From the NCBI GenBank assembly GCA_964616135.1, contig CAZTTQ010000003.1, positions 1-48,934 of the forward strand: a stretch of DNA of 48,934 nt, written 5' to 3'. The translations under genes were made by a program, and so were the position numbers. This document shows, in pieces, positions 7,001-34,416 of the stretch. Every line of letters begins with the position of its first letter. The stretch's first letter is position 1. The notes beneath the pieces were generated by a model. It was not told the origin of the DNA. It worked only from the letters and a program-made list of their open reading frames with translations, and searched no databases. Origin of the DNA: an uncultured Gammaproteobacteria bacterium (GTDB taxonomy: Bacteria > Patescibacteriota > Patescibacteriia > UBA9934 > GWF2-40-263).

Positions 7001-10000
7001 ACGCTGATCACCCAAATCGGCACCGGCAACATTTCAGCCATCAAGACGGCTACGGACACCATCAACTGGGCAAACGTAACGACAATTGTCTCCAACACGG
7101 GTGCCATCCAGGCTAAAACCGACACGATTGATTGGACGGACGTCGCCGCCATCAAGACCAAGACAGACACCATCGCCTGGGCGGACATCACGGATATCCA
7201 ATCCAAGGTTGATACTCTGGTGACCCAGATCGGTACCGGTAATATTTCAGCCATCAAGACTGCCACGGATACCATTGCTTGGACCGACGTGACCAGCATC
7301 CTCACGGATACGGGGATTATCAAAGCAAAGACGAACACCATCGACTGGACGGACGTCGCTGCTATCAAGACCAAGACGGATACCATCCTCTGGACCGATG
7401 TGACGGGTGTCCGTTCCGTCGTTGATACGCTGGCTTCGGAAATCGGCACTGGCAACATCTCGGCCATTAAGACCAAGACGGACACGGTTGATTGGACCGA
7501 CGTGACGGGGGTCGTGACGGACACGGGGCTGATCAGAGCCAAGACCGACACTATTGATTGGAGTAACGTCACGGCCATCAAGACCAAGACGGATACGATC
7601 AATTGGGCCGACGTCACGGACATTCAGTCGAATGCGGATACGTTGGTGACGGAAATCGGCACGGGCCGCATTTCGGCCATCAAGACGTCTACGGACACGA
7701 TTGACTGGGGCGACGTAACCGGGATCGTGACGGACACGGGCCTCATCAAGGCAAAGACCGACACCATTGATTGGACGAACGTGACGGCGATCAAAACCAA
7801 GACGGATACCATCCTCTGGACTGACGTGACAGGCGTTCGTTCCGTCGTGGACGACCTCGCAACTGAAATCGGTACCGGAAACATTGCCGCCATTAAGACC
7901 AAAACGGATACCATCAATTGGGCGAACGTAACCGGGATCGTGACGGACACGGGCCTCATCAAGGCAAAGACGGACACCATTGATTGGACGAACGTGACGG
8001 CGATCAAAACCAAGACGGACACCATCGCGTGGGCTGACGTCACGGACATCCAAGCAAAGGCCACCAGTATCCAGGCGAACATGGATATCCTGGTCGGTGC
8101 CATGATCGTGACCCAAGGGACGGTCAGTGATGCGTCCGCGACCACAACCTCGTTTGTCTCCTCGTTGACTAATGCGACGACTAATTTCTACAAGAACGCG
8201 GTCATTACATTCACGTCCGGGGCGTTGGACGGCCAGAACCGCCGCATTTCGGCCTATGATGGCGTCACGAAGGCCATTACCGTAGACCCGGCGCTCACCT
8301 CGGCCCCGGCGAACGGCGCCGGCTTCACCATCATTACCCAGAACGTGCGGGTGGAAGAGCAGATGGTGGACCACGAGGCGTTGGAATCCGCGTTCCGCGC
8401 GGACGTCACCAACCGCCTGACATCCATTGAAACGAAGATCGATACCATCACGTCCACGCTGAACGGCGTGGACACGGACCTGTCCGCGACGCAGGCGGTG
8501 GTAGACAACCTCCGCGCGTCCCAAGTATTGAACAGGGAGGTCGTCCTGTCGGACGTCTCGACCGTCGCCGCTTCCGGGGACTATCACGCGACGTTGACGG
8601 TGCAGGACTATGAATCCGATCCGGTGGCGCCGGACGCCGCTCCGCAAATAACCATTTACGACGCCACGGGTGCCACGGTTCAAGCGGCAACGCCCATGAC
8701 CCTGGCCTCTACGGGCGTGTACACGTTTGACCTGACCCTGGCCTCGGACGCCGTGTCCGGCCTGTGGGAATCCAAGGTCACCGTGGACGTCGGCGGGTCG
8801 TCAGACGTCACGCGCAAGGACTACTTCTACGTGACGGGCGCGCCGGCCCAGGTGCTCATTAACAGCATCTCGGACCTGACGGTTCCGTCCATCGCGGCCG
8901 ACATTACCATCACAAACGAAGGAACGGCCCCGTTCGAATACCCGTACGAATGGTGCGTTGTTTCTTCCGTAAACAACGCCTGCGGGGGAGGGGACGACGT
9001 CTACCACGGGTCCGCGGCGAAACTGATCGCCGTCGGGGAGAACTTCAACACGACGCTCTCGGCGACCGTGCCGACGCCGGGCAACTATTACTTCAAGCTT
9101 GTCGCCTACTTTGGAACGGAAGCGTCCGCGGCCAGCCGGTCGTTCACGGCCGTGGCGGACGGCGTGCCGCCGGAACCTCCGCCGACGTCCGGAGGTGGCG
9201 GCTCCAGCTGGGTCTACACCCCGCCCGTACCGGAACCGACGGCGACGGGAGAAGACCCGACGGGCGACCACGCCATGCTCATGCGTGAGCTGTCGGCCAG
9301 CTCCCTCAAGCTGGAAATGATCCTGGAGTCGTTGTCCATGATCTCGCCGGACGTGAAGCAACTGCTCGTCGTCAACGCGGGTCAGACCAGCAGCCTAAAG
9401 GACATCCAGAACAAGGTTTCGGACCTGCGCGCCGTGTCCACGGCCACGCGCCAGATCGTGGAACGCAAGGCCTCGGAGCCGATCGTCCACAGCTACATGA
9501 AGTTCAACTCGGTGGTCATCAGCTTCCTGATCACCAACCCGACCGGCGTGTCGCAAACCCTCAAGTTCAAGGCGTTCCTGCCGGAAGAAGCCAAACCGGA
9601 ATACGTCATGGACTCGCAGGGGTTGAAAGTGGACTACGACACCGACGCAAAACTGTACTTCGTCTCGGGCGACGTCGTGCTGGGCCCGAGCGAAACGGTG
9701 ACGCGCGACGTCGAACTGAAGGACGTGTGGGTGTTCGACAAGGACGAACTGGGCCAAATCAAGGCGCAAGTCGCCAGCATGCTGCCGGTCCTGTCCGGCA
9801 CGCAGTATGAGGCCCAAGGAATCCTGTTGAAGAACGACGTCGATTCGACGATCGACGCGGTGCTCCGCAAACAGGAAAGCAGCTACACGTCGCCGCAGGA
9901 CCACATCGTCGCGTACCGGGAAAACGTCGACCGCGTCGCGCGCGTGCATGAGGAAGTTTCAAAGATGAAAGACTTGGTCGTGCAGGCGGGGGCGTCCCGC

Positions 10001-10297
10001 AGCGTCGTCGGCCAAGTCGGCGGCATTCAGACGTTTGCCACCTGGGGCATTATCGTCGCCATCGTGTTCGGCTTTGGAATGTTGGCCGCCGTCATCTTCG
10101 CGATGTGGCGCCACCAGACCCTGCTGACGGCCGCCGCGCTTGGCATGAGCAAGGACGACCTGGCGGACTACTTGGGCAAGTCCAAGCGGAAAGCTCTGCC
10201 GCCCGCGCCTAAAAAGCCGAGGATCCGACGCAAAAAGGAAGAACCGGAGCCGATTGACCTGCCGCCTCCGCCGGACGCCGAACCCCCGCCCATGTGA
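4040..10297 (+). CDS. Giant (2085 aa) modular cell-surface protein with N-terminal signal/anchor and C-terminal TM anchor
   Basis: Uninterrupted 6258-nt ORF. Signal-like N-terminus (RRFRD..TIITGWLLFSLMW..AKA/AG). Six ~100-aa modules with G-x-[YF]-x-G-x-G...GF-x-PD-x-V-x-[VI]K. Two FN3-like modules ending YYWRV(K/R)Y, Ig/CARDB-like modules, and a 5 x 71-aa array. C-terminal TM helix WGIIVAIVFGFGMLAAVIFAMW plus a K/P-rich tail. Confidence 0.85.
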   Translation: MRRFRDILNTLRTIITGWLLFSLMWGNGGLQAVLSVPTAKAAGEFSVKTGYYVGTGTTLAITGLGFQPEVVMVKAESSAGNWMFKTSAMPTSVTAYLGASTSDNAESEITFTSDGFTLSPALEVNTVNVRFLYMAFYGYMCVGSYTGNGSSNQAISSVGFQPDLVMVRRSIASSVVFRTSDMSTNHAAFIDSASANNTTGVYFQTLNATGFTVGSTVNVNAGSYYFLAFKNLANKFKVGTFTGDGTDNRNITGVGFLPDFVFIKQNSAIVGAFLQTESWGDASVLPNLSFPVVNHIQSLLADGFQVGSGNSVNVVGVASYYFAFGGAPDPVTSGSFYMARGSYTGNGTSQSIDTTFRPDLVMIKGNTIQYAVWATSLERDNTHYFATTTPFTTGITSLNATSFSVGAHATVNSNLLTYEWMAFGNATTPQRGGGSAEFVIGAFTGTGLARSITNLGMAPDMVTVSRNGASTPVWKTSAPTTAAGTSLYFVNTADDATATLINTLTSNGFTVGTGATVNTANAVNVFFGFKEGANFDVGTYTGDGVAGRDVTGLGFDPDLVWVKRSTAVGGVLRSTSSTITGTNAQYFQNLANAGSLITGFITGGFEVGTASEVNAAAGVYRYAAWNATTTANPPNTPTNSSPANAATAQDLNPTLTGSAYSDTDGDTHAATYWEVDDDSNFTHPAWTRTSVTGETSIVVNTTNGTFANESAGKTELDHNTTYYWRVKYSDGVYSPLSTATSFTTNAIVTPTNSSPAADATVTSLTPTLTASAFSDPQAGHTSASAQWQISTVSDFSTTVYDSGTVSYTASLAVPSAVLADRTSYYWRVRYKDSSDFWSSWSTATRFATNVSVVSVTGLIGSPVVDQGDTLKIDARVALTNGTAINDATVTVNIYNPSGTKVVDAASMTYLTGSNGVYRYSYTVPATSGSYLYEATAVSNSVTGYGAGNFEVRTLQANVSTISSNLTSLSSTVSTIASDVADIKTDVATLITQIGTGNISAIKTATDTINWANVTTIVSNTGAIQAKTDTIDWTDVAAIKTKTDTIAWADITDIQSKVDTLVTQIGTGNISAIKTATDTIAWTDVTSILTDTGIIKAKTNTIDWTDVAAIKTKTDTILWTDVTGVRSVVDTLASEIGTGNISAIKTKTDTVDWTDVTGVVTDTGLIRAKTDTIDWSNVTAIKTKTDTINWADVTDIQSNADTLVTEIGTGRISAIKTSTDTIDWGDVTGIVTDTGLIKAKTDTIDWTNVTAIKTKTDTILWTDVTGVRSVVDDLATEIGTGNIAAIKTKTDTINWANVTGIVTDTGLIKAKTDTIDWTNVTAIKTKTDTIAWADVTDIQAKATSIQANMDILVGAMIVTQGTVSDASATTTSFVSSLTNATTNFYKNAVITFTSGALDGQNRRISAYDGVTKAITVDPALTSAPANGAGFTIITQNVRVEEQMVDHEALESAFRADVTNRLTSIETKIDTITSTLNGVDTDLSATQAVVDNLRASQVLNREVVLSDVSTVAASGDYHATLTVQDYESDPVAPDAAPQITIYDATGATVQAATPMTLASTGVYTFDLTLASDAVSGLWESKVTVDVGGSSDVTRKDYFYVTGAPAQVLINSISDLTVPSIAADITITNEGTAPFEYPYEWCVVSSVNNACGGGDDVYHGSAAKLIAVGENFNTTLSATVPTPGNYYFKLVAYFGTEASAASRSFTAVADGVPPEPPPTSGGGGSSWVYTPPVPEPTATGEDPTGDHAMLMRELSASSLKLEMILESLSMISPDVKQLLVVNAGQTSSLKDIQNKVSDLRAVSTATRQIVERKASEPIVHSYMKFNSVVISFLITNPTGVSQTLKFKAFLPEEAKPEYVMDSQGLKVDYDTDAKLYFVSGDVVLGPSETVTRDVELKDVWVFDKDELGQIKAQVASMLPVLSGTQYEAQGILLKNDVDSTIDAVLRKQESSYTSPQDHIVAYRENVDRVARVHEEVSKMKDLVVQAGASRSVVGQVGGIQTFATWGIIVAIVFGFGMLAAVIFAMWRHQTLLTAAALGMSKDDLADYLGKSKRKALPPAPKKPRIRRKKEEPEPIDLPPPPDAEPPPM
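7004..8068 (+). repeat. In-frame tandem array, 5 units x 213 bp (71 aa), inside the giant gene
   Basis: Unit starts at 7004, 7217, 7430, 7643 and 7856, exactly 213 nt apart. Unit consensus is L(V/I)T(Q/E)IGTGNISAIKT-x-TDTI-x-W-x-(D/N)VT...AKTDTIDW(T/S)(D/N)V(A/T)AIKTKTDTI-x-W-x-DVT. Units alternate A-B-A-B-A in their last ~15 aa (..W(A)D(I/V)TDIQ(S/A).. versus ..LWTDVTGVRSVVD..). Confidence 0.9.
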
Positions 10298-24781: not shown

Positions 24782-24855
24782 TTGCTTGCGTTTGGGCCCC
24801 CGTTCGGCTACGCTAGCCGCGTTCATTTTTGACCCTTTTCCTTCCGTTCCGGCTT

Positions 24856-26952
24856 ATGCAGACTTGGAAACGCAAGAAAGCCTACGTCCGCCCCAGCCAC
24901 GTTGGGGCCGTAAAGCCGTGGCGCACGCGCCTGGCCGCCGCCTTTTTCCTGTTGGCCACCGTGGCCACGGGCCTGTCGTCGTTCCCGCAGCCGTGGGACG
25001 CCGCGGCCAACGCCGTGAATGCCAAGACGGGTTGGCACATCCCGACGGTCCCGGCACCCAACTTCCGCTTGGGGTTGGACCTGCAGGGCGGCACCCACCT
25101 CGTTTATGAGGCGGACATGAAGGACATTCCGGAAGCGGACCGCGACACCGCCTTGGAAGGCGTCCGCGACGTCATTGAAAAGCGCGTCAACGCGTTCGGC
25201 GTCGCCGAACCGCTGGTGCAGACCACGTCCACGGGCGGTACCTACCGCCTGGTGGTCGAACTGGCCGGCGTCCTGGACGTAAAGGAGGCCATTAAGCAGA
25301 TCGGCGAGACGCCGGTCTTGGAGTTCCGCGAACCTTCCAAGGATCTCGGCCGCGACCCGACCGCGGAAGAAAAGCAGAAGCTCGCCGACACCAACAAGGC
25401 GGAACGCAAGGCTGCCGCGGACGCGTTGGCCCGCGCCCAAAAGGCGCCGGCGACGTTTGCCGTGCTGGTCCAGGAATTGTCCGTGGACCTGACCAAGGCC
25501 GACACGCTCGGCAAACTCGGCAACGTGACGGCCGCGTCCGAAGCGTACGGCGCCATCGCCAAGGCCATCACAGCCACCGGCTCCTGGCCCGGCCGCGTGG
25601 TCCCGCGCGTCATTGAGACGCCGGAAGGCCTGAATGTGGTGAAGTACACGGGCATGGGCAACGGGCAGGAAATGCAGCTGTCCCACATTCTCGTCTGTTT
25701 TGAAGGCGCCACGGGCTGCGCCAACCCCATTCCGGAGTTGGACGCCTCGCTCCTCATCAACCGGTTGAAGGGGGAAGCGACGGCGGCGAACTTCGCCGAC
25801 CTTGCCACGCAGAACTCCACGGACGCCGGTTCCGCCGCGAACGGCGGCAAGTTGGATCCGTCGGAAACGGACCCGTGGGTCAAGCCCGGTTCCTTGGTCG
25901 CCCCGTTTGAAATCGCCGCCCTCGCGCTGAAGCCGGGCCAGATTTCCGACGTCGTGCGCACGGACTTCGGGTTCCACCTGATCTACAAGCGCGCCTCCCG
26001 CCCGGTAAAGACGTACCAGGTGGAGCACATCGTCCTGCCATTGTCGGACATCACCGACATCGCGGCCCCGGCGTCCCCGTGGAAGAACACGGCGTTGTCC
26101 GGCAAGCACTTGTCCCGCGCGACCGTGCAGTTCGACCAGACGTCGGGCGCCCCGCACATCGCCATCCAGTTCAACGAGGAAGGCGGCAAGCTGTTTGCCG
26201 AATTGACCGGCCGCTTGGTCGGCCAGCCGATCGGAATCTTCCTGGACGGCAATGCCATTTCCACGCCGGTGGTTGAAACGGCCATCATCGGAGGACAGGC
26301 CGTCATTACAAGCAAGGACTTCACTTTGGAGAGCGCCAAATTGCTCGCCCAGCGTCTGAACGCCGGCGCGCTGCCGGTGCCGATCACACTGCTGTCCCAA
26401 CAGACCGTCGGTCCGACGCTCGGCCTCGCGTCCCTGGACGCGTCGCTCAAGGCCGCGTTGATCGGCTTCGCCTTAGTCGCGCTGTTCATGATCGTCGTGT
26501 ACCGCCTGCCGGGCCTGGTCGCCGTCGTGGCGCTCGCCCTGTACGCGGCGCTGAACGTGCTGGCGTACCGGATCTTCGGGGTGACGATCACGCTCGCCGG
26601 CGTCGCCGGCTTGGTCCTGTCCCTCGGTATCGCTGTGGACGCCAACGTGCTCATCTTCGAACGTGTCCGGGACGAATCCCGCCACGGGCATGACCTGCGC
26701 ACGTCGTTGGAAGAAGGCTTCAAGCGCGCCTGGCCGCCCATCCGCGACGGCCACATGACCACGTTCATCTCGGCCATGGTGCTCTACACCTTCAGCTCCA
26801 GCTTCGTCCGCGGCTTCGCCCTCACGCTCGCCATCGGTATCATCCTCTCGCTCTTCACGGCCATCACGGTGACCCGCGCGTACCTGCGCGTCGTCTCCAA
26901 GCCGGCCTTCCTGCAGCGCCCCTGGCTCTACGGGTTCAAGAAATCCGCCTAA
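24856..26952 (+). CDS. secD: Protein-export membrane protein SecD with an inserted parvulin-type PPIase module
   Basis: N-terminal TM helix, then LGLDLQGGTHLVYE. C-terminal 6-TM core (VGPTLG....LSLGIAVDANVLIFERVRDE). About 230 extra residues sit in the periplasmic domain, including a rotamase-like segment. Confidence 0.9.
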   Translation: MQTWKRKKAYVRPSHVGAVKPWRTRLAAAFFLLATVATGLSSFPQPWDAAANAVNAKTGWHIPTVPAPNFRLGLDLQGGTHLVYEADMKDIPEADRDTALEGVRDVIEKRVNAFGVAEPLVQTTSTGGTYRLVVELAGVLDVKEAIKQIGETPVLEFREPSKDLGRDPTAEEKQKLADTNKAERKAAADALARAQKAPATFAVLVQELSVDLTKADTLGKLGNVTAASEAYGAIAKAITATGSWPGRVVPRVIETPEGLNVVKYTGMGNGQEMQLSHILVCFEGATGCANPIPELDASLLINRLKGEATAANFADLATQNSTDAGSAANGGKLDPSETDPWVKPGSLVAPFEIAALALKPGQISDVVRTDFGFHLIYKRASRPVKTYQVEHIVLPLSDITDIAAPASPWKNTALSGKHLSRATVQFDQTSGAPHIAIQFNEEGGKLFAELTGRLVGQPIGIFLDGNAISTPVVETAIIGGQAVITSKDFTLESAKLLAQRLNAGALPVPITLLSQQTVGPTLGLASLDASLKAALIGFALVALFMIVVYRLPGLVAVVALALYAALNVLAYRIFGVTITLAGVAGLVLSLGIAVDANVLIFERVRDESRHGHDLRTSLEEGFKRAWPPIRDGHMTTFISAMVLYTFSSSFVRGFALTLAIGIILSLFTAITVTRAYLRVVSKPAFLQRPWLYGFKKSA
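25672..25992 (+). other. Parvulin (PpiC-type rotamase)-like domain embedded in SecD
   Basis: MQLSHILVCFEG....NFADLATQNSTDAGSAANGGKLD.....LVAPFEIAALALKPGQISDVVRTDFGFHLIYKR follows the parvulin pattern (HIL..., S.D.GSA..GG.L, F..A...L..G..S..V.T.FG.H.I). Confidence 0.65.
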
Positions 26953-26953
26953 T

Positions 26954-27850
26954 ATGGCCTTCAGCTTCATCAAGACGCGCTATTGGTGGTTCGCCCTGTC
27001 CGGTGCCATGATCGTGGGCAGCCTGCTTGCGGTCGCGACGCTCGGATTGAACCAGAGCATCGACTTCACGGGCGGCAGCCTCATGGAACTGAAGTTCGAA
27101 GGGGACATGCCCGCCACGTTGGACGTCGCCCGGGACCTGACGGACGCCGGATTCAAGGCCGTGACCGTGCAGTCCTCCGGCGCGGACGAAGCGATCGTCC
27201 GCCTGGAATCCCTGGATGAAACGCGCCACCAGGAAGCCCTGGCGGCGTTGTCCAAGTCCTTCAAGGTGCAGGAATTGCGCTTTGACTCCATTGGCCCGGT
27301 CGTGGGGAAGGAGCTCAAGAACTCCGCCTTCACGGGCGTCGCGGTGACCTTGCTCCTCATCGGCCTCTATATCGCCTGGGCGTTCCGCAAGGTGTCCCAG
27401 CCGGTGGCCGCGTGGAAGTACGGCGCCCTGACGGTGCTGGCCGCCGCGCACGACGTCATCGTGCCGCTCGGCGTCTTCGCCGTGTTGGGCCGCTTCTACG
27501 GGTGGGAAGTGGGAACGGCCTTCGTGGCCGCCATCCTGACCATCTTGGGCTACTCCATCAGCGATACGGTGGTCGTGTTCGACCGTACGCGTGAAAACCT
27601 GCAGCATCAGACGGCGGGGGAGAGCTTCGCCGACGTGGTGGAAAAGAGCATCCAGCAGACGTTCGTTCGCTCGGTGAACACCAGCGTCACGACGTTGCTC
27701 GCTTTGCTCGCCATCCTTGTCTTCGGCGGGGACTCCACGCGTCCGTTCGCGTTGGCCCTGTTCGTCGGCATCCTGGTGGGGACGTATTCCTCCATCTTCA
27801 TCGCCTCGCCGCTCCTGGTCGAATGGGAGCTGCGTTCCAAGAACGCGTAA
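26954..27850 (+). CDS. secF: Protein-export membrane protein SecF
   Basis: IDFTGGS, DSIGPVVG, YSISDTVVVFDRTREN, 6 TM. Starts 1 nt after the secD stop. Confidence 0.93.
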   Translation: MAFSFIKTRYWWFALSGAMIVGSLLAVATLGLNQSIDFTGGSLMELKFEGDMPATLDVARDLTDAGFKAVTVQSSGADEAIVRLESLDETRHQEALAALSKSFKVQELRFDSIGPVVGKELKNSAFTGVAVTLLLIGLYIAWAFRKVSQPVAAWKYGALTVLAAAHDVIVPLGVFAVLGRFYGWEVGTAFVAAILTILGYSISDTVVVFDRTRENLQHQTAGESFADVVEKSIQQTFVRSVNTSVTTLLALLAILVFGGDSTRPFALALFVGILVGTYSSIFIASPLLVEWELRSKNA

Positions 27851-27856
27851 TCCGGC

Positions 27857-27889
27857 ACGCCGTCCCGCAGGGGGCGGCGTTTCGTTTTC
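27857..27889 (+). terminator. secDF intrinsic terminator
   Basis: ACGCCGTCCC-gcag-GGGGCGGCGT followed by TTCGTTTTC. Confidence 0.7.
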
Positions 27890-27906
27890 ATGCGGACGCG
27901 GACGCG

Positions 27907-27915
27907 TGCTATAAT
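27907..27915 (+). promoter_or_regulatory. Extended -10 promoter (TGcTATAAT)
   Basis: Perfect TATAAT (27910-27915) with an upstream TG. ATG 27926 lies 10 nt downstream. Confidence 0.55.
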
Positions 27916-27925
27916 CGGAGCCAAT

Positions 27926-29551
27926 ATGGTGCCATCGCTCGACCCCTCTTTCTGGACCCAGCCGATTGACCAAGTCCTGTACACTGTCCTCGTTCAGTTC
28001 GGGTGGATTCCCATTGCGCTGACCATCGTGCATGGTCTGCTCCAGGTGTGGAAAAACCACAAGCAGGGGGAATTCCTCTCCAAGCAAAAGTACGTAATGC
28101 TCGCCATCGACGTGCCGGCCATGACGGAACAGACGCCAAAATCCATGGAGAACCTGTTCGCCATGTTGGCCAGTTCCTATTCGGGTCCGACGTTCAAAGA
28201 AGAATGGATCATCGGCAAGGTGCAGACCACCTTCTCGTTTGAGATTGTCTCCACGGACGGCTACGTGCAGTTCTTGGTGCGCCTCCAGCCCAAGTTCCGT
28301 GATGCGTTGGAAGCGGCCATCTACGCGCACTACCCGGACGCCGAAATCGCGGAGGTTGAGGACTACGCGCGGGACTTTCCGACCAAGTTTCCGAATGACA
28401 CCCATGACATGTGGGGGTCCGAATTCAAGTTGAAGAATCCGGAAATCTTCCCCATCCGCACCATCCGGGACTTTGAAGACCCCATTACGAAGGAAATTAA
28501 GGATCCGCTCGGCCAGATCCTGGAACAGATGGCCAAGATGCGTCCCGGGGAAAACTTCTGGGTGCAATACCTGTTGGAGCCCTGTAACAATGATTGGCAA
28601 AAAGCCGGCGGCACCTTCATTAACAAGGTGTACGGCATTGAAAAGCCCCCGACGGAAAGCGGGTTCACGGCCGGTCTCCGCACGCTGGTCTCTGTGCCGG
28701 ACGCGGTGTTGGCCAAGACGCTCGGCATCACCATCGGCGACCTGTTCTTGGGCGCGCCGCCTAAGGCCAAAGAAGCGGACCAGTGGCGCGCGTTCAAGCT
28801 GACGTCCGTGGAAAAGGAACAAACGGCGGAAGTCCTGGAAAAAATCTCCAAGCCGGGCTTTAAGGTAAAAGTCCGCGTGCTCTACGTGGCGCGCAAGGAA
28901 GCCTTCAACAAGGGCGGCCGCGTGCTCATGATCAAGGGGATGTTCAACCAGTACGCCAACTCGTACCTCAACTCCTTCGGCTTCTTCGGCCAGAGCATGC
29001 CCAAGGACGACTACTTCTGGCAGGTGTGGGAATACGCCAAGAAACAGGAGACCCTGATGAAGGCGTACGTCAACCGTGACCCGTCCACGGGCGCCAACGG
29101 CCTGGTGCTCAACTCGGAGGAGCTCGCTACGTTGTGGCATTTCCCGATGATCGGCGTAAAGGCGCCGATGATCCGCAAGGCGGAGGCGCGCCGCGCGGAA
29201 CCGCCTATCGGCCTGCCGGTCGGTCTGGACGAGCCGCTGCCCACGGGCCCACGTGCCGACAAGAAGCCAAAAGAAGAAAAAGCCTATGTCGCCTCCGCTC
29301 CGGACGTGTCTTTGCCGGGCATGGCCGCCGCCGCGTATACGTCGTCTCCTGTGCGCGCTACGGCGCCGCACGCGGAAGTTGCCGCAGAGCCGGAAGAAGT
29401 CGAACTCGGCCTGGACGCAACTGATATGGGGCCGCCCGCGGACGTAGAACTGCCGGGACCGCCCCCGGGCTTCGTCACGGGAGAAGGCTTGGAAGACAAG
29501 GACAACGACGGCTCCCGTGAAGGCGCCCCGCCCCCCAATTTGCCCATGTAG
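27926..29551 (+). CDS. Single-pass membrane protein, partner of the T4CP-like ATPase (unknown family)
   Basis: 541 aa. TM helix FGWIPIALTIVHGLLQVW, a ~400-aa globular region (..SFEIVSTDGYVQFLVRL..IYAHYPDAEIAEVEDY..) and a Pro/Ala/Glu-rich tail. The next gene follows after a 3-nt gap. Confidence 0.7.
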   Translation: MVPSLDPSFWTQPIDQVLYTVLVQFGWIPIALTIVHGLLQVWKNHKQGEFLSKQKYVMLAIDVPAMTEQTPKSMENLFAMLASSYSGPTFKEEWIIGKVQTTFSFEIVSTDGYVQFLVRLQPKFRDALEAAIYAHYPDAEIAEVEDYARDFPTKFPNDTHDMWGSEFKLKNPEIFPIRTIRDFEDPITKEIKDPLGQILEQMAKMRPGENFWVQYLLEPCNNDWQKAGGTFINKVYGIEKPPTESGFTAGLRTLVSVPDAVLAKTLGITIGDLFLGAPPKAKEADQWRAFKLTSVEKEQTAEVLEKISKPGFKVKVRVLYVARKEAFNKGGRVLMIKGMFNQYANSYLNSFGFFGQSMPKDDYFWQVWEYAKKQETLMKAYVNRDPSTGANGLVLNSEELATLWHFPMIGVKAPMIRKAEARRAEPPIGLPVGLDEPLPTGPRADKKPKEEKAYVASAPDVSLPGMAAAAYTSSPVRATAPHAEVAAEPEEVELGLDATDMGPPADVELPGPPPGFVTGEGLEDKDNDGSREGAPPPNLPM

Positions 29552-29554
29552 CCT

Positions 29555-31510
29555 ATGCCACACGACCAGCAGCCAGAGCCCATCACGTATTTTGCCCGCA
29601 CCAACTACCGGAATCAGTTGGTGAAATTCGGCATCAAGCGGGACGACCGCCGCCGCCATATGTACTTGGTGGGGAAGACCGGCATGGGCAAGTCCGTCCT
29701 GCTGGAGAACATGTTCCTGTCGGACATCTACGCCGGCAACGGCTGCTGCTACGTGGACCCGCACGGCGACACGGCGGAACGCCTGATCGATTTCATTCCG
29801 TCTTGGCGCATTAACGACGTCGTGTACTTCAACCCGGCGGACTTGGATTTCCCGATCGGGTTCAACATTTTGGAAGCCGTCGACGAACGCCACAAGCACC
29901 TGGTGGCGTCGGGCATGATGGGCGTTTTCAAGAAGATCTGGGAGAACGTCTGGTCGGCCCGCATGGAGTACATCCTCAACAACACCATTTTGGCGTTGAT
30001 GGACAACCCGGGGTCCACGCTGCTCGGTATCAACCGCATGCTGTCGGACGAAGAATACCGCAACCGGATGGTCAGCAACGTAAAGGACCCCATCGTCAAG
30101 CAATTCTGGCTGGGCGAATTCGCCTCGTGGGATCCCAAGTTTGCCGCCGAAGCCAGCTCGGCCATCCAAAACAAGATCGGCCAGTTCCTGTCGGCGTCCG
30201 TCATCCGCAACATCGTCGCGCAGGTAAAATCGACCATCAACATCCGCCAGATCATGGATGAAGAGAAGATCTTCATCGTGAACCTGTCCAAGGGCCGCAT
30301 CGGGGAAGATTCCTCGCGCCTGTTGGGCGGCATGCTGATCACCAAAATCCAACTGGCGGCCATGGAACGCGTGGACCAGCTGGAAAAGGACCGCAAGGAC
30401 TTCTACCTGTACGTGGACGAGTTCCAGAACTTCGCCGTGGAATCGTTTGCCGCGATTTTGTCCGAAGCGCGCAAATACCGCCTATGCCTGGTCATGGCGC
30501 ACCAGTACATCGCCCAGCTGTCGGATGAAGTGCGCGAGGCGGTCTTCGGCAACGTCGGAAGCATGATCGCGTTCCGCGTCGGCAGCCCGGACGCCGTGTT
30601 CCTGGAAAAGGAATTCGAGCCCCGCTTCATGGTGGCCGACATCGTGAACCTGCCGAAATACAACATCTACCTGAAGTTGCTTATCGACGGCGTGTCCAGC
30701 CAGCCGTTCTCCGCCGTGACCTTGCCGCCCATCGCCCAGCGCACCGATTCCGGGGACAAAGTGACCCGCGTGACGCGTGAACGCTACTCGCTGTCGCGCA
30801 AGGACATTGAGGACAAGATCACCAAGTGGAGCGGCATAGAAGAAGGCCCCGCCGGCACGGCCAAGCTGATGGCCGCCGCCGCCGAGAAGAAAAAGTCTTT
30901 TAAGGACGCCAAGAAGCCCAAGTTCGAGTACAAGTGTTCCCGCTGCGGCAAGCAGATCATTCTGCCGGTGGAATTGGACGCCTCGCGCCCCATCTACTGT
31001 GAGGAATGTATCGAGATCGTCCGCGCGGAACGCAAAGGAGGAAAGCCGTCTGCGCCCGTCGCGCCCAAACCGGCAGCGACGCCAGGCGTGGTGACACAGA
31101 CGGCCCCGCGGCCGCCCGTGGCTCCTGCGCCGACGGTCGCGACGGTAAACGTGCCTGCATCGGCCAAGCCGGCCACGGTTCCCGCCCCGGTGCCCAAAGC
31201 CTCTGTGTCGCAAAAACCGCGCGACGCTCGGCCCCAAAAGGACCTACCGCCGCCGCGCTCGCTCCCGCCCGTCCAAAAGCCCTCGTCTCCCGGCGGCCCC
31301 AAGCCTCCAGCCCTGACGCTCGCGGAATTGGCGGCAAAGGCCGGTCCGGCTAAGCGCGTCGTAGAAGACGACGACGAACTCGGGCCCGACGAAAGCGACG
31401 TGCCGGAGATCCCGCTGAACGAACTCATGAAGGCTGCCATGAAAGAAGAAGAATCCAAAAAGGCCAAGACAGGAACGTTGAAACCGGGCGAAACCGCCCT
31501 GTTCGACTAA
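29555..31510 (+). CDS. Soluble VirD4/TraD-like (type IV coupling protein family) P-loop ATPase with C-terminal CxxC-x17-CxxC zinc ribbon
   Basis: Walker A VGKTGMGKS, DPHGD, Walker B FYLYVDEFQNF, RKYRLCLVMAHQYIAQL. No N-terminal TM. CSRC-x17-CEEC at nt 30935-31009, then a Pro/Ala/Lys-rich tail. Confidence 0.75.
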   Translation: MPHDQQPEPITYFARTNYRNQLVKFGIKRDDRRRHMYLVGKTGMGKSVLLENMFLSDIYAGNGCCYVDPHGDTAERLIDFIPSWRINDVVYFNPADLDFPIGFNILEAVDERHKHLVASGMMGVFKKIWENVWSARMEYILNNTILALMDNPGSTLLGINRMLSDEEYRNRMVSNVKDPIVKQFWLGEFASWDPKFAAEASSAIQNKIGQFLSASVIRNIVAQVKSTINIRQIMDEEKIFIVNLSKGRIGEDSSRLLGGMLITKIQLAAMERVDQLEKDRKDFYLYVDEFQNFAVESFAAILSEARKYRLCLVMAHQYIAQLSDEVREAVFGNVGSMIAFRVGSPDAVFLEKEFEPRFMVADIVNLPKYNIYLKLLIDGVSSQPFSAVTLPPIAQRTDSGDKVTRVTRERYSLSRKDIEDKITKWSGIEEGPAGTAKLMAAAAEKKKSFKDAKKPKFEYKCSRCGKQIILPVELDASRPIYCEECIEIVRAERKGGKPSAPVAPKPAATPGVVTQTAPRPPVAPAPTVATVNVPASAKPATVPAPVPKASVSQKPRDARPQKDLPPPRSLPPVQKPSSPGGPKPPALTLAELAAKAGPAKRVVEDDDELGPDESDVPEIPLNELMKAAMKEEESKKAKTGTLKPGETALFD

Positions 31511-31513
31511 ATG

Positions 31514-31543
31514 AAATCCGCCCTCATGGGCGGATTTTCGTTT
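31514..31543 (+). terminator. Intrinsic terminator of the two-gene module
   Basis: AAATCCGCCC-tcat-GGGCGGATTT followed by TCGTTTC. Confidence 0.75.
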
Positions 31544-33618: not shown

Positions 33619-34416
33619 TCAGGACGCGTCGGGCAGGAAGGCGTGCGAGCGCAGCCATGCCTGGACCGCGTTGTTGTTGACCGGCTTCTGGCGGTAGGCG
33701 CCGCCGTTCTGCTCGATGAGCGCGATCACGTCCGCGTCGTTGCGGCCGGAGAGGACCAGGTACGGCATGAGCCGGTCCTCCTGCCGCAGCTTGACGAGGC
33801 AGCGGACGCCGTCGAGGTCGCCCATCTGGAAGTCGGAGATGACGAAGGAGACGGCCCGGGAGCGGCAGTACGCCAGGGTCTCGGTCCCGTCACGGGCTTC
33901 CAGCACCTCGAAGCCGAGGCTGGTGAGCAGGTCCGCAAGCGATCTGCAGGCGTCGGGATCGTCGTCGGCGACGACGGCCACGTGCTTCGGGGCCGCGGGG
34001 AGGAACCGCTCCAGGAACCCTTCGATGACCTTCAGCTCGATGGGTTTCGGGCTGTACTCCGCGCCGAGCGTCTTGCACGTTTCCTGCTCGTCCTGGGACA
34101 GTTCGCCCCCGCTCATGAGGACGAACGGCAGGCGGGAACCGGTGGCGCGGATCTCGCGGAGGAGGCCCAGGCCCCCCATGTTCGGCATGTGGGTGTCGGA
34201 GATCACGAGGTCGGGCGCGAGCGCGCGGAACGTCGCGAGCGCTTCACTCCCGTCCTCGCAGGCCGTCACCTCGACCCGCAGGGAGCGCTTCATTGCCCAG
34301 GCGTCGATGACCCGTTTGTAACCCCGGCGGATGCCGAGTTGGTCGTCCACGAGCAGGACGCGCTTGGGGGTGGCTTCTTCGGCCAAAGGACACCTCTGGT
34401 ACCTGGCCCGCTCCAT
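33619..34416 (-). CDS. Response regulator with two tandem receiver domains and no output domain
   Basis: REC1 VLLVDD...DLVISDTHMPNMGG...SPKP. REC2 VAVVADDD...SFVISDFQMGDLDG...RQKP. No histidine kinase is in the window. Confidence 0.85.
   Translation of the reverse strand: MERARYQRCPLAEEATPKRVLLVDDQLGIRRGYKRVIDAWAMKRSLRVEVTACEDGSEALATFRALAPDLVISDTHMPNMGGLGLLREIRATGSRLPFVLMSGGELSQDEQETCKTLGAEYSPKPIELKVIEGFLERFLPAAPKHVAVVADDDPDACRSLADLLTSLGFEVLEARDGTETLAYCRSRAVSFVISDFQMGDLDGVRCLVKLRQEDRLMPYLVLSGRNDADVIALIEQNGGAYRQKPVNNNAVQAWLRSHAFLPDAS

What the first reader, a model, noticed from the sequence alone, without database searches (positions are those of the whole stretch)
27907..31543. Orphan two-gene module directly after secDF: single-pass membrane protein plus soluble VirD4/TraD-like ATPase with a CxxC-x17-CxxC zinc ribbon
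Seen in sequence. The module is a discrete transcription unit. It follows the secF terminator (27857-27889), has its own TGcTATAAT promoter (27907-27915), a 3-nt gap between the two genes (TAG cct ATG), and its own terminator (31514-31543) before uppP. Gene 1 (541 aa) has one TM helix near the N-terminus, a ~400-aa globular part with no motif I can name, and a Pro/Ala/Glu-rich tail. Gene 2 (651 aa) carries Walker A GKTGMGKS, DPHGD, Walker B FYLYVDEFQNF and RKYRLCLVMAHQY. This is the signature of the coupling-protein (VirD4/TraD/TraG) branch of the FtsK-HerA superfamily. Gene 2 has no N-terminal TM segments. It ends with CSRC-(17 residues)-CEEC (30935-31009) and a ~170-aa Pro/Ala/Lys low-complexity tail. 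Established knowledge: canonical T4CPs are membrane-anchored by their own TM helices and work with a relaxase, VirB4 and channel or pilus genes. None of those, and no integrase, is visible anywhere in this 49-kb window. Archaeal Ced-type DNA importers show that a membrane protein plus a HerA/VirB4-like ATPase can form a minimal translocator. Inference: the TM partner may supply the anchor for a minimal chromosomal nucleic-acid (or protein) translocation device, housed with Sec and envelope genes rather than on a mobile element.
Basis: partly seen in the sequence, partly recalled or inferred. Interest (0 to 1): 0.78.

Follow-up and report, generated by a model that had tools for sequence, protein, structure and literature searches.

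The report
Split type IV coupling ATPase, Patescibacteria
The two genes are the two halves of one type IV secretion "coupling" ATPase, a membrane-anchor half and a motor half, split by an old gene fission and kept beside secDF in many Patescibacteria; the family is known, but this split, widely conserved copy has no described role.

Summary
In detail: coordinates, lengths, motifs, zinc ribbon, tails and flanking hairpins are all as described.

The pair is not an orphan. The window is from a Candidatus Uhrbacteria-like genome. Gene 1 is Pfam DUF8128 and occurs in at least 574 species genomes. Gene 2 follows it in 65 of 72 loci, and secF precedes it in 58 of 75.

Gene 2 is a VirD4/TrwB-type coupling protein (T4CP) by profile and by fold. 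Gene 1 is that protein's own N-terminal part. Single proteins carrying DUF8128 plus the ATPase exist in other Patescibacteria, some beside secDF and some beside a T4SS cluster. They also exist in an actinomycete plasmid T4SS cluster and in Bacillus phages such as phage G gp156.

A stand-alone, Ced-like minimal translocator is neither supported nor excluded: one related genome with the same gene order has VirB4 elsewhere.

Most likely this is a membrane-tethered T4CP paralogue serving the chromosomal T4SS. The substrate is unknown. I rate it a new variant of a known kind, of moderate interest.

The parts
24829..26952 (+). secD, with a PpiC-type rotamase domain inserted at aa 278-395. It is a conserved syntenic neighbour of the module.
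   Evidence: Pfam SecD_1st, SecDF_P1_head, SecD_SecF_C and Rotamase. secD-secF lies upstream of gene 1 in most of the 81 loci.
26954..27850 (+). secF, a conserved syntenic neighbour.
   Evidence: Pfam SecD_SecF_C 1.4e-56. secF lies within 1.6 kb upstream of gene 1 in 58 of 75 loci with room.
27857..27890 (+). Terminator-like hairpin plus T-rich tail after secF.
   Evidence: 10-pair stem with 8 G-C pairs. This is a consensus match only.
27907..27915 (+). TGcTATAAT, an extended -10-like element.
   Evidence: Read in the sequence. No -35/-10 pair was found by the scan. Unverified.
27926..29551 (+). Gene 1: the anchor and N-terminal-domain half of a split T4CP (DUF8128 family, 541 aa).
   Evidence: Precomputed PF26449 tag. 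Matches phrog_5156 profile positions 16-288. Aligns to phage G gp156 aa 50-348. A broader N-terminal-domain HMM also matches the Embleya plasmid T4CP, E 1.3e-21.
27974..28042 (+). Single TM helix of gene 1 (aa 17-39), predicted N-out, C-in.
   Evidence: Hydropathy and flanking charges. AF2 models a long helix at aa 14-53.
28088..29221 (+). Cytoplasmic alpha/beta DUF8128 core (aa 55-432), ending in the junction-type motif EPPIGLPV (aa 425-432).
   Evidence: pLDDT mostly above 85. Invariant motifs in the alignment. Foldseek: phage G gp156 2e-17; TrwK/VirB4 4e-4 with low TM-score. The fused proteins carry GEPPANLP[IV] at the same place.
29222..29530 (+). Disordered Pro/Ala/Glu spacer of gene 1, variable in length among homologues (56-185 aa).
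   Evidence: pLDDT below 50. Tail-length statistics.
29531..29548 (+). Terminal PPNLPM hexapeptide of gene 1, a second copy of the junction-type motif and a putative docking peptide for gene 2.
   Evidence: Present at the C-terminus of 117 of 120 homologues. Related to the PANLP[IV] motif that lies about 10 aa before the ATPase domain in the fused proteins. Docking is inferred.
29555..31510 (+). Gene 2: the soluble VirD4/TrwB-type ATPase half (651 aa).
   Evidence: Pfam TrwB_AAD_bind 40.8 bits (cut-off 20.5), T4SS-DNA_transf and TraG-D_C, all above their cut-offs. Foldseek: TrwB 3.7e-6, Cag-beta 4.9e-5. Matches phrog_5156 positions 396-804, E 2.4e-59. Aligns to gp156 aa 381-812, E 2e-47.
29672..29695 (+). 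Walker A, GKTGMGKS (aa 40-47).
   Evidence: invariant in alignment A2.
29885..30259 (+). All-helical insert (aa 111-235) between the Walker A and Walker B parts of the fold, in the position of the all-alpha domain of T4CPs.
   Evidence: AF2 secondary structure; this region has low to moderate confidence (10-residue block means 47-70).
30401..30433 (+). Walker B, FYLYVDEFQNF (aa 283-293).
   Evidence: invariant D288, E289, F290, Q291.
30935..31009 (+). CxxC-x17-CxxC zinc ribbon (aa 461-485), specific to the split subfamily.
   Evidence: TIGR04272 and zf_Tbcl_2 hits below their cut-offs. Present in 117 of 120 split homologues but 1 of 120 fused ones.
31025..31468 (+). Disordered Pro/Ala/Lys tail of gene 2.
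   Evidence: Composition.
31469..31507 (+). Conserved C-terminal peptide TGTLKPGETALFD of gene 2.
   Evidence: An SGTLxxGxxxxF[DE]-type ending occurs in 107 of 120 homologues. Its partner is unknown.
31513..31543 (+). Terminator-like hairpin after gene 2.
   Evidence: 11-pair stem.

Best explanation
Genes 1 and 2 are the two halves of one type IV secretion coupling protein (T4CP). This T4CP class is built as an N-terminal TM helix, then a DUF8128 domain, then a VirD4/TrwB-type ATPase.

An old gene fission in the inter-domain linker separated the anchor and N-terminal domain (gene 1) from the motor (gene 2). The motor then carries a C-terminal zinc ribbon and a basic disordered tail.

The two products reassemble at the cytoplasmic face of the membrane. 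Gene 1 tethers the ATPase ring through its TM helix. Its long flexible tail ends in a PPNLPx peptide resembling the motif that precedes the ATPase domain in the unsplit proteins.

The complex most likely acts as T4CPs do. It would use ATP to recruit a macromolecular substrate (a nucleic acid or a nucleoprotein) and feed it to the chromosomally encoded T4SS located elsewhere in the genome.

Shown here: homology, fusion and fission, topology, synteny and conservation. Inferred: complex formation through the tail peptide, coupling to the T4SS, and the nature of the substrate.
For: T4CP identity:
- Three T4CP Pfam families score above their gathering thresholds.
- The TrwB chain is the best sequence hit in the PDB, through the P-loop region.
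- The best fold matches are TrwB and Cag-beta, ahead of HerA.

One functional unit:
- phrog_5156 covers gene 1 at profile positions 16-288 and gene 2 at 396-804.
- Phage G gp156 aligns collinearly to both proteins.
- 112 of 120 relatives of gp156 carry both domains in one chain. Most of those that carry a source name are Patescibacteria.
- Gene 2 lies within 800 nt downstream of gene 1 in 65 of 72 loci.
- The window junction is in frame, TAG cct ATG.
- The PPNLPx motif lies at the domain junction of the fused forms and at the C-terminus of 117 of 120 split gene 1 homologues.

Link to the T4SS:
- Fused paralogues with 49-50% identity in the ATPase domain lie beside PrgI-like, TraC-like, VirB4, M23 peptidase and pilin genes next to dnaA/dnaN.
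- An Embleya plasmid has the same TM-DUF8128-ATPase protein inside a PrgI, VirB4-like ATPase, T4CP, replication-relaxation, NlpC/P60 cluster.
- The ABY1 genome of L001, which has the same secDF-g1-g2 order, is listed as VirB4-positive.
- The Southlakia T4SS cluster lacks a recognisable coupling protein (PMC10633639).

Core gene rather than mobile element:
- All identified neighbours are housekeeping genes.
- Median identity to the window protein is 65% for gene 2, against 51-52% for SecD and SecF.
Against: - No T4SS, relaxase or integrase gene lies in the window or within about 8 kb of gene 1 in any of the 81 loci.
- PMC12102498 reports T4CP homologues in 2,918 of 3,035 genomes but VirB4 in only 2,417, and only 148 T4CP genes near virB4. 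Its authors raise exaptation as a possibility.
- The T4CP homologue of Southlakia was reported as non-essential while the T4SS genes were essential. The only Saccharibacteria relative I saw (P0449) falls in a different paralogue group, at 41% identity.
- The linkage to secDF persists in both the split and the fused forms. The T4SS model does not explain it.
- The gene 2 structure model has only moderate confidence (pLDDT 62).
- No interaction between the two proteins was computed.
Confidence: 0.6

Rival explanations
1. A T4SS-independent membrane translocation motor. The split T4CP paralogue has been exapted. It works without VirB4 and the T4SS channel, for example as a nucleic-acid import or export motor, or together with the Sec/SecDF machinery it is always encoded next to.
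For: - No T4SS genes lie nearby in any of the 81 loci.
- T4CP homologues occur in more genomes than VirB4, 96% against 80%.
- The secDF linkage is kept in split and fused forms and in both gene orientations.
- The ATPase is more conserved than SecDF.
- The zinc ribbon and basic tail are specific to this subfamily.
- A cultivated patescibacterium takes up host RNA by an unknown route (bioRxiv 10.64898/2026.06.21.733656).
Against: - Gene 1 has one TM helix and a cytoplasmic domain, and nothing that looks like a channel.
- The closest paralogues, and the actinomycete homologue, are embedded in T4SS clusters.
- The ABY1 relative has VirB4.
- Metagenome-assembled genomes are incomplete, which can explain the gap between 96% and 80%.
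- Synteny alone does not show a functional link with Sec.
Confidence: 0.25
2. An FtsK-like chromosome-segregation or division DNA pump that replaces or supplements FtsK in reduced genomes.
For: - It belongs to the same FtsK-HerA superfamily.
- It has core-genome status and high conservation.
- Fused paralogues lie near dnaX, gyrBA and dnaA/dnaN.
Against: - The FtsK_SpoIIIE model matches only the P-loop, at 13.7 bits against a cut-off of 24.
- The fold ranks T4CPs first.
- TM7x, a patescibacterium, has its own ftsK (PMC10768705).
- No FtsK gamma-like domain was seen.
Confidence: 0.05
3. A relic or cargo of a mobile element or an anti-phage system (for example a MADS-type or HerA-type defence ATPase, or a domesticated phage gene) with no core cellular role.
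For: - PADLOC mad8 hit, E 5.7e-16, plus weak HerA hits.
- Homologues occur in Bacillus phages and on plasmids.
Against: - No other MADS or defence genes, integrase or repeats lie nearby.
- The position beside secDF is fixed across classes.
- Sequence conservation is very high.
- No relative was found by the pattern scan of IMG/VR viral contigs.
Confidence: 0.04

Closest known systems
VirD4/TrwB-type coupling proteins (TrwB of R388, Cag-beta of H. pylori)
   Same: P-loop ATPase with the same Pfam families above threshold. TrwB and Cag-beta are the best fold matches. A helical insert sits where the all-alpha domain lies. The protein is membrane-tethered.
   Different: The anchor is a separate polypeptide with one TM helix plus a roughly 380-aa DUF8128 domain that TrwB, TrsK and PcfC lack. 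It also has a C-terminal zinc ribbon and long disordered tails. No adjacent relaxase or T4SS genes. It is a chromosomal core gene beside secDF.
TM-DUF8128-ATPase coupling proteins in one chain: Embleya plasmid WP_331738717.1, patescibacterial P0484 and P0463 (T4SS-linked), P0418 and P0422 (secDF-linked)
   Same: Same two modules in the same order. N-terminal-domain HMM E 1.3e-21 and hhalign probability 98.6% for Embleya. 49-59% identity in the ATPase domain for the patescibacterial fused forms. Shared PANLP junction motif.
   Different: They are unsplit. They lack the zinc ribbon (1 of 120) and the roughly 95-aa disordered spacer. Embleya, P0484 and P0463 sit inside or beside T4SS clusters.
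pIP501 TraI/TraJ two-partner coupling protein
   Same: A soluble T4CP proposed to be held at the membrane by a separately encoded membrane protein (PMC12857230).
   Different: TraI is a small two-TM protein, not a detached N-terminal domain. The system is plasmid-borne with a relaxase and a full T4SS. No sequence comparison was run here.
Bacillus phage G gp156 and the 'VirD4-like' proteins of SPO1-like phages (phrog_5156)
   Same: Homologous over both modules.
   Different: They are fused. gp156 has no N-terminal TM helix but has an internal hydrophobic helix at aa 183-201. Their function in phages is unknown. Their neighbours are a VirB4-like ATPase (phage G gp155) or a replication-relaxation protein (SP8).
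VirB4 with a detached or accessory N-terminal part (TrsD/TrsE of pGO1; VirB3-VirB4)
   Same: The gene 1 model's ten best PDB matches are all TrwK/VirB4 chains (E 4e-4 to 4e-3, probability 0.94-1.0). The N-terminal part being encoded separately from the ATPase is a shared theme.
   Different: TM-scores are low (0.25-0.30). hhalign and hmmsearch against TrwK, TrsD, TrsE and PrgJ find nothing. The ATPase half is closer to T4CPs than to VirB4.
Archaeal Ced DNA importer
   Same: A membrane component plus a FtsK/HerA-superfamily ATPase, not on a mobile element.
   Different: The CedD model matches only the P-loop (19.5 bits against a cut-off of 600). Gene 1 is single-pass and mostly cytoplasmic, unlike the multi-pass Ced membrane subunit (from my own knowledge; not compared here).

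Membership tests
VirD4/TrwB-type T4CP | VirD4-type P-loop ATPase domain recognised by the family profiles | tested here: met
   TrwB_AAD_bind 40.8 bits (cut-off 20.5), T4SS-DNA_transf 25.6 (20.1), TraG-D_C 25.2 (22). Walker A and Walker B are intact and invariant.
VirD4/TrwB-type T4CP | TrwB-like fold: nucleotide-binding domain with an inserted helical domain | tested here: met
   Foldseek: TrwB 3.7e-6, Cag-beta 4.9e-5, HerA 8.6e-5. Helical insert at aa 111-235. Model confidence is moderate (pLDDT 62).
VirD4/TrwB-type T4CP | N-terminal membrane anchor | tested here: met
   Gene 2 itself has none. The anchor is supplied in trans by gene 1 (TM at aa 17-39). In 63 of the 120 relatives of gp156 (112 of them fused) the first ~108 residues hold a TM-like segment; for P0418-P0422 it precedes the DUF8128 domain.
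VirD4/TrwB-type T4CP | Genetic association with VirB4/T4SS genes and a relaxase | tested here: not met
   None in the window or in the flanks of the 81 loci. It is met only for the paralogues P0484 and P0463 (T4SS genes only) and the Embleya homologue (with a replication-relaxation gene). A related genome has VirB4 elsewhere.
VirD4/TrwB-type T4CP | Hexameric, nucleic-acid-stimulated ATPase that recruits substrates to a T4SS | not testable with these tools
   Needs biochemistry and genetics.
DUF8128 (PF26449) | Match to the family profile | tested here: met
   The precomputed PF26449 tag is on the window protein's own cluster and on nearly all homologues; UniRef names one of them 'DUF8128 domain-containing protein'. 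The local Pfam copy returned no match to this family for gene 1.
FtsK/SpoIIIE | FtsK_SpoIIIE motor domain above threshold | tested here: not met
   13.7 bits against a cut-off of 24, P-loop region only. No FtsK chain is among the fold matches listed.
HerA-NurA | HerA (DUF87) domain above threshold and a NurA partner | tested here: not met
   DUF87 14.3 bits against a cut-off of 23.2. HerA ranks below the T4CPs by fold. The partner gene is DUF8128, not NurA.
Ced DNA importer | CedD-type or CedB-type ATPase plus a multi-pass CedA-type membrane subunit | tested here: not met
   CedD 19.5 bits against a cut-off of 600. Gene 1 is single-pass.
MADS defence system | mad8-like ATPase together with the other mad genes | tested here: not met
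   mad8 E 5.7e-16, but the neighbours are secDF and uppP and no other defence model matched.
VirB4 (N-terminal domain) | Homology of gene 1 to the VirB4 N-terminal domain or to TrsD | tested here: inconclusive
   The ten best PDB fold matches are all TrwK/VirB4, with low TM-scores. No signal at the sequence or profile level. The tool does not report which part of VirB4 was aligned.

The most novel reading that the evidence does not exclude
The secDF-linked split T4CP, with its subfamily-specific zinc ribbon and basic tail, may be a core nucleic-acid translocation motor of Patescibacteria. It could pull host-derived RNA or DNA into the cell, through the T4SS or through another channel. That would make it part of the long-sought uptake route that lets these bacteria, which cannot make nucleotides, live on host nucleic acids. 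A side point: its DUF8128 domain may be a VirB4-type N-terminal domain, which would make this T4CP class an evolutionary link between VirB4 and VirD4.
Probability: 0.15. Interest if true: 0.85.

Novelty: new variant of a known kind. Interest (0 to 1): 0.55.

Why it matters
Patescibacteria make up a large share of uncultivated bacterial diversity. They depend on hosts for nucleotides, lipids and amino acids. Their T4SS is essential for epibiotic growth in Southlakia, yet the cluster has no recognised coupling protein, and what it transports is unknown.

A strongly conserved T4CP that is widespread in the phylum is an obvious candidate for the missing motor, or for a new one. This one is as conserved as SecDF, is always encoded away from the T4SS, and is split into an anchor and a motor.

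Recognising DUF8128 as the N-terminal module of a T4CP class also gives a function-level annotation to thousands of 'hypothetical' proteins. These occur in Patescibacteria, on at least one actinomycete plasmid and in large Bacillus phages. The result sets up direct experiments on interaction, localisation, nucleic-acid binding and knockouts.

Tried and rejected
- Sequence and profile links between gene 1 and VirB4, TrsD, VirB3 and canonical T4CP N-termini. hhalign and hmmsearch against TrwK, TrsD, TrsE, PrgJ, TrwM, PrgI, TrwB, TrsK and PcfC gave nothing, even with a 191-sequence N-terminal-domain HMM. The VirB4 resemblance therefore rests on Foldseek alone.
- The local Pfam copy, NCBIfam and PDB sequence searches found nothing significant for gene 1.
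- The IMG/VR viral contig scan with the DUF8128 alignment gave 77 pattern matches, none confirmed.
- FtsK replacement was rejected: TM7x has ftsK and the profile match is P-loop only.
- MADS or HerA defence was rejected on gene context.
- Literature searches for DUF8128, and for Candidate Phyla Radiation with secDF and coupling protein, found no description of this pair. The library is incomplete.
- Plasmid accessions BR000038 and FM207042 were not held; the RefSeq versions were used instead.
- I did not try a fused or multimer structure prediction, because the tool returns no coordinates or PAE, so an interface could not be judged.
- The distant T4CP and VirB4 references aligned over too few columns (0-50) in the NJ tree. 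Their placement there is meaningless and was ignored.
- I could not tell whether Saccharimonadia have the secDF-linked subfamily. The one Saccharibacteria relative seen (P0449) belongs to another paralogue group.

Full report
**1. The observation**

- Gene 1 is 27926..29551 (541 aa) and gene 2 is 29555..31510 (651 aa). They are separated by TAG cct ATG and lie in the same reading frame.
- Gene 1 has one hydrophobic segment, aa 17-39. The flanking charges place the large domain in the cytoplasm. It ends in a 111-aa tail rich in Pro, Ala and Glu.
- Gene 2 has no TM segment. It has intact Walker A and Walker B motifs, CSRC-x17-CEEC at nt 30935-31009, and a tail rich in Pro, Ala and Lys.
- Hairpins with T-rich tails follow secF (27857-27880) and gene 2 (31513-31538). 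The number of such sites in the region is not above the shuffled expectation.
- TGcTATAAT is at 27907-27915, without a recognisable -35 element. The 'own transcription unit' is therefore plausible but unproven.
- The rest of the window is housekeeping: uvrA, folD, glyA, murC, murB, secA, secD, secF, uppP, murJ and alaS.
- No T4SS, relaxase or integrase gene was found in the window.

**2. Whose genome, and how common is the pair**

Both proteins have very many homologues, and the names their sources give are almost all Patescibacteria.
- Gene 2 gave at least 8000 scored hits. The best were labelled Candidatus Uhrbacteria or Patescibacteria and annotated 'type IV secretion system DNA-binding domain-containing protein'.
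- Gene 1 carries the precomputed Pfam tag PF26449, DUF8128.
- A profile of gene 1 finds 2,671 clusters at 50% identity with E <= 1e-3, and 898 with E <= 1e-30.
- A scan of one genome per GTDB species found at least 574 species with a relative. These included Uhr-, Magasanik-, Falkow-, Buchanan- and Nomurabacteria, Paceibacter and Minisyncoccota.

In the 81 loci fetched, the gene order is strongly conserved.

| Measure | Result |
|---|---|
| Gene 2 within 800 nt downstream of gene 1 | 65 of 72 loci with room |
| secF within 1.6 kb upstream of gene 1 | 58 of 75 loci with room |
| uppP found in the locus | 18 of 81 loci |
| Median identity to the window, gene 2 | 65% |
| Median identity to the window, SecD / SecF | 51% / 52% |
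| Median identity to the window, gene 1 | 40% |

In a few loci the pair is separated or gene 2 is missing from the flank; the inserted genes were not identified.

So this is a conserved four-gene neighbourhood under strong purifying selection. It is not an orphan and not a mobile element.

**3. What gene 2 is**

- The Pfam families TrwB_AAD_bind, T4SS-DNA_transf and TraG-D_C all score above their gathering thresholds. FtsK_SpoIIIE, DUF87 (HerA) and AAA_10 score below theirs, and match only around the P-loop.
- The NCBIfam CedD model scores 19.5 bits against a cut-off of 600.
- An AlphaFold model (pLDDT 62) shows a nucleotide-binding domain with a helical insert at aa 111-235. Its best PDB matches are TrwB (3.7e-6) and Cag-beta (4.9e-5), followed by HerA.
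- A family HMM scores TrwB at 1e-8, ahead of TrsK and the VirB4 proteins.

Gene 2 is a divergent VirD4/TrwB-type coupling ATPase.

**4. What gene 1 is: the key result**

The local Pfam copy, NCBIfam and PDB sequence searches are silent on gene 1. Its AlphaFold model has a confident alpha/beta core at aa 55-410 and a disordered tail.

The PHROGs scan showed what it is. One 824-position family, phrog_5156, matches gene 1 at positions 16-288 (E 1e-22) and gene 2 at positions 396-804 (E 2e-59). Further evidence for fusion:
- Bacillus phage G gp156 (825 aa) aligns collinearly. Its aa 50-348 match gene 1 aa 102-448, and its aa 381-812 match gene 2 aa 38-456.
- Foldseek against viral models puts gp156 first for gene 1, at 2e-17.
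- The 906-aa 'VirD4-like' protein of the SPO1-like phage SP8 also has both parts.
- Of 120 relatives of gp156, 112 carry both domains in one chain. Most of those that carry a source name are Patescibacteria: Berkel-, Falkow-, Sacchari- and Gottesmanbacteria.

The genomic contexts of the fused forms sort into groups.

| Fused proteins | Size and anchor | Context |
|---|---|---|
| P0484, P0463 | 726-728 aa, no N-terminal TM | Divergent neighbour of a T4SS cluster (PrgI-like, TraC-like, VirB4, M23 peptidase, T4SS pilins) next to dnaA/dnaN |
| P0422, P0418 | 927-937 aa, with N-terminal TM | Beside secF-secD, preceded by a second fused paralogue and tgt |
| P0449, P0428 | 945 and 829 aa | Among housekeeping genes |

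A neighbour-joining tree on 413 ATPase columns gives the following identities to the window's gene 2. The split gene 2 group is sister to the fused secDF-linked group.

| Group | Identity to window gene 2 |
|---|---|
| Fused, secDF-linked | 55-59% |
| Fused, T4SS-linked | 49-50% |
| P0428 and P0449 types | 41-44% |
| Phage G gp156 and relatives | 32-33% |

Outside the phylum, the best plasmid hits include an Embleya linear plasmid. There an 812-aa protein sits in a cluster of PrgI, a VirB4-like ATPase, the T4CP, a replication-relaxation protein and NlpC/P60. That protein has a TM helix at about aa 34-56. Its next domain matches a broadened DUF8128 HMM at E 1.3e-21 (hhalign probability 98.6%), and it ends in the gene 2-type ATPase (E 3e-69).

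DUF8128 is therefore the N-terminal module of a class of T4CPs. The window's two genes are one such T4CP cut in two.

**5. The fission point**

- The fused proteins have a single GEPPANLP[IV] motif about 10 residues before the ATPase N-terminus (TxFAxTxYR...FGIK..DRR.H.Y..GKTG.GKS).
- The split gene 1 has EPPIGLPV at the same place (aa 425-432). A disordered spacer of 56-185 aa follows, and then a second copy, PPNLPx, forms the very C-terminus. This is so in 117 of 120 homologues.
- The stop codon comes next, then one codon, then the ATG of gene 2, all in frame.
- I infer that the terminal peptide still packs against the ATPase and holds the two halves together on a long leash. This has not been tested.
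- The zinc ribbon is present in 117 of 120 split gene 2 homologues but in 1 of 120 fused proteins.
- A conserved C-terminal SGTLxxGxxxxF[DE] peptide ends 107 of 120 split gene 2 homologues. Its partner is unknown.

**6. Fold of the DUF8128 core**

The ten best PDB matches are all TrwK/VirB4 chains of R388 (E 4e-4 to 4e-3, probability 0.94-1.0). The TM-scores are low (0.25-0.30), and the tool does not say which part of VirB4 was aligned. No sequence or profile method supports the link. I treat a VirB4-type N-terminal domain as a lead, not a finding.

**7. What is already known**

- PMC12102498 (2025) reported 5,713 VirD4-type T4CP homologues in 2,918 of 3,035 Patescibacteria genomes, and VirB4 in 2,417. 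Only 148 T4CP genes lay near virB4. The authors suggested that exaptation cannot be ruled out. In the passages I searched and read, it does not mention DUF8128, the split, the secDF linkage or the phage homologues.
- Its Table S1 lists GCA_004297215.1 as class ABY1 and VirB4-positive. This is the genome of locus L001, which has the same secD-secF-g1-g2 order. At least that one relative therefore has a T4SS elsewhere in its genome.
- The Southlakia study found the T4SS essential and noted that the cluster lacks a recognisable coupling protein (PMC10633639).
- PMC12857230 records the pIP501 precedent: a soluble T4CP, TraJ, proposed to be anchored by a separate small membrane protein, TraI.
- A 2026 preprint reports host-RNA uptake by a cultivated patescibacterium, by an unknown route.

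**8. Mechanism and rivals**

Best explanation (0.6 overall). The pair is a membrane-tethered split T4CP. Gene 1 anchors, gene 2 is the hexameric motor, and the complex most likely recruits and energises transfer of a nucleic-acid or nucleoprotein substrate through the chromosomal T4SS encoded elsewhere. I rate the identity and fission part at about 0.9 and the coupling to the T4SS at about 0.45.

Rivals:
- A T4SS-independent motor, possibly working with Sec or in nucleic-acid import (0.25). In its favour are the unexplained secDF synteny, the wider distribution than VirB4, and the subfamily-specific zinc ribbon.
- An FtsK-like division pump (0.05). Against it: TM7x has ftsK.
- A mobile-element or defence relic (0.04). 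The PADLOC mad8 hit is outweighed by the gene context and the conservation.

**9. Verdict**

This is a new variant of a known kind, a split, chromosomal, secDF-linked T4CP with a zinc ribbon. The new recognition is that DUF8128 is the N-terminal module of a T4CP class shared by Patescibacteria, an actinomycete plasmid and large Bacillus phages. Interest is moderate (0.55). It would be high if this protein proves to be the motor for host nucleic-acid uptake.

Noticed in passing
window 24829-26952 (aa 278-395 of SecD): SecD carries a PpiC/parvulin-type peptidyl-prolyl isomerase domain, placed between its SecD_1st and P1-head Pfam matches (Rotamase 4.9e-23). The same is seen in the SecD of L001. 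This looks like a foldase built into the translocon accessory subunit.
   Followed up: partly
L015 5599-6759; L025 4422-5681; L027 9217-10458; L030 8388-9635; L032 11602-12891; L034 11976-13229: In six loci a second gene 2-like ATPase (37-43% identity by tblastn) follows gene 2 directly. In the rough tree it groups with a 743-aa fused protein. No gene 1-like part was looked for next to it.
   Followed up: partly
L092 2432-8348; L094 4899-10784: Berkelbacteria-like contigs carry two fused DUF8128-T4CP paralogues in tandem (829-831 aa and 927-937 aa). A conserved 173-178-aa gene separates them, tgt lies upstream, and secF-secD lies convergently downstream.
   Followed up: partly
L086 4747-8284 (phage SP8); L085 3220-7362 (phage G); L097 5762-9280 (Embleya plasmid): The fused T4CP-like gene is followed by a replication-relaxation (PF13814) gene in the SPO1-like phage SP8 and in the Embleya plasmid. 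In phage G it is preceded by a VirB4-like ATPase (gp155). Large Bacillus phages thus carry a piece of conjugation-type machinery whose role is unknown.
   Followed up: partly
L085 4885-7362 (phage G gp156, aa 183-201): gp156 has no N-terminal TM helix. It has a strongly hydrophobic internal helix (IVKGLMLIVDLLVSSVMLV, Kyte-Doolittle mean 2.28) in the region that is a low-confidence amphipathic helix (aa 246-266) in gene 1. This may be a membrane-associating element inside the DUF8128 domain.
   Followed up: no
window 31469-31507: Gene 2 ends in a conserved 13-residue peptide (TGTLKPGETALFD; an SGTLxxGxxxxF[DE]-type ending in 107 of 120 homologues) after a long disordered basic tail. It looks like a docking motif for an unknown partner.
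   Followed up: partly
window 4040-10297: A 2,085-aa ORF with DUF7483, Ig-like (Rha78A_N) and MG2 domains, in a stretch of lower G+C (0.55-0.57 against about 0.63). It is probably a giant surface protein.
   Followed up: no
window 33619-34416 (- strand): A 265-aa protein made of two response-regulator receiver domains, with no Pfam-detected output domain.
   Followed up: no
L096 6989-8176 (Sulfitobacter mediterraneus plasmid NZ_CP081110.1): The closest relative of gene 2 outside Patescibacteria (38% identity, E 6e-88) is a 395-aa ATPase-only protein on a non-mobilizable alphaproteobacterial plasmid. It lies among transposases and a recombinase, with no DUF8128 partner annotated. Streptomyces (117 records), haloarchaeal and Sulfolobus plasmids also carry relatives.
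   Followed up: partly
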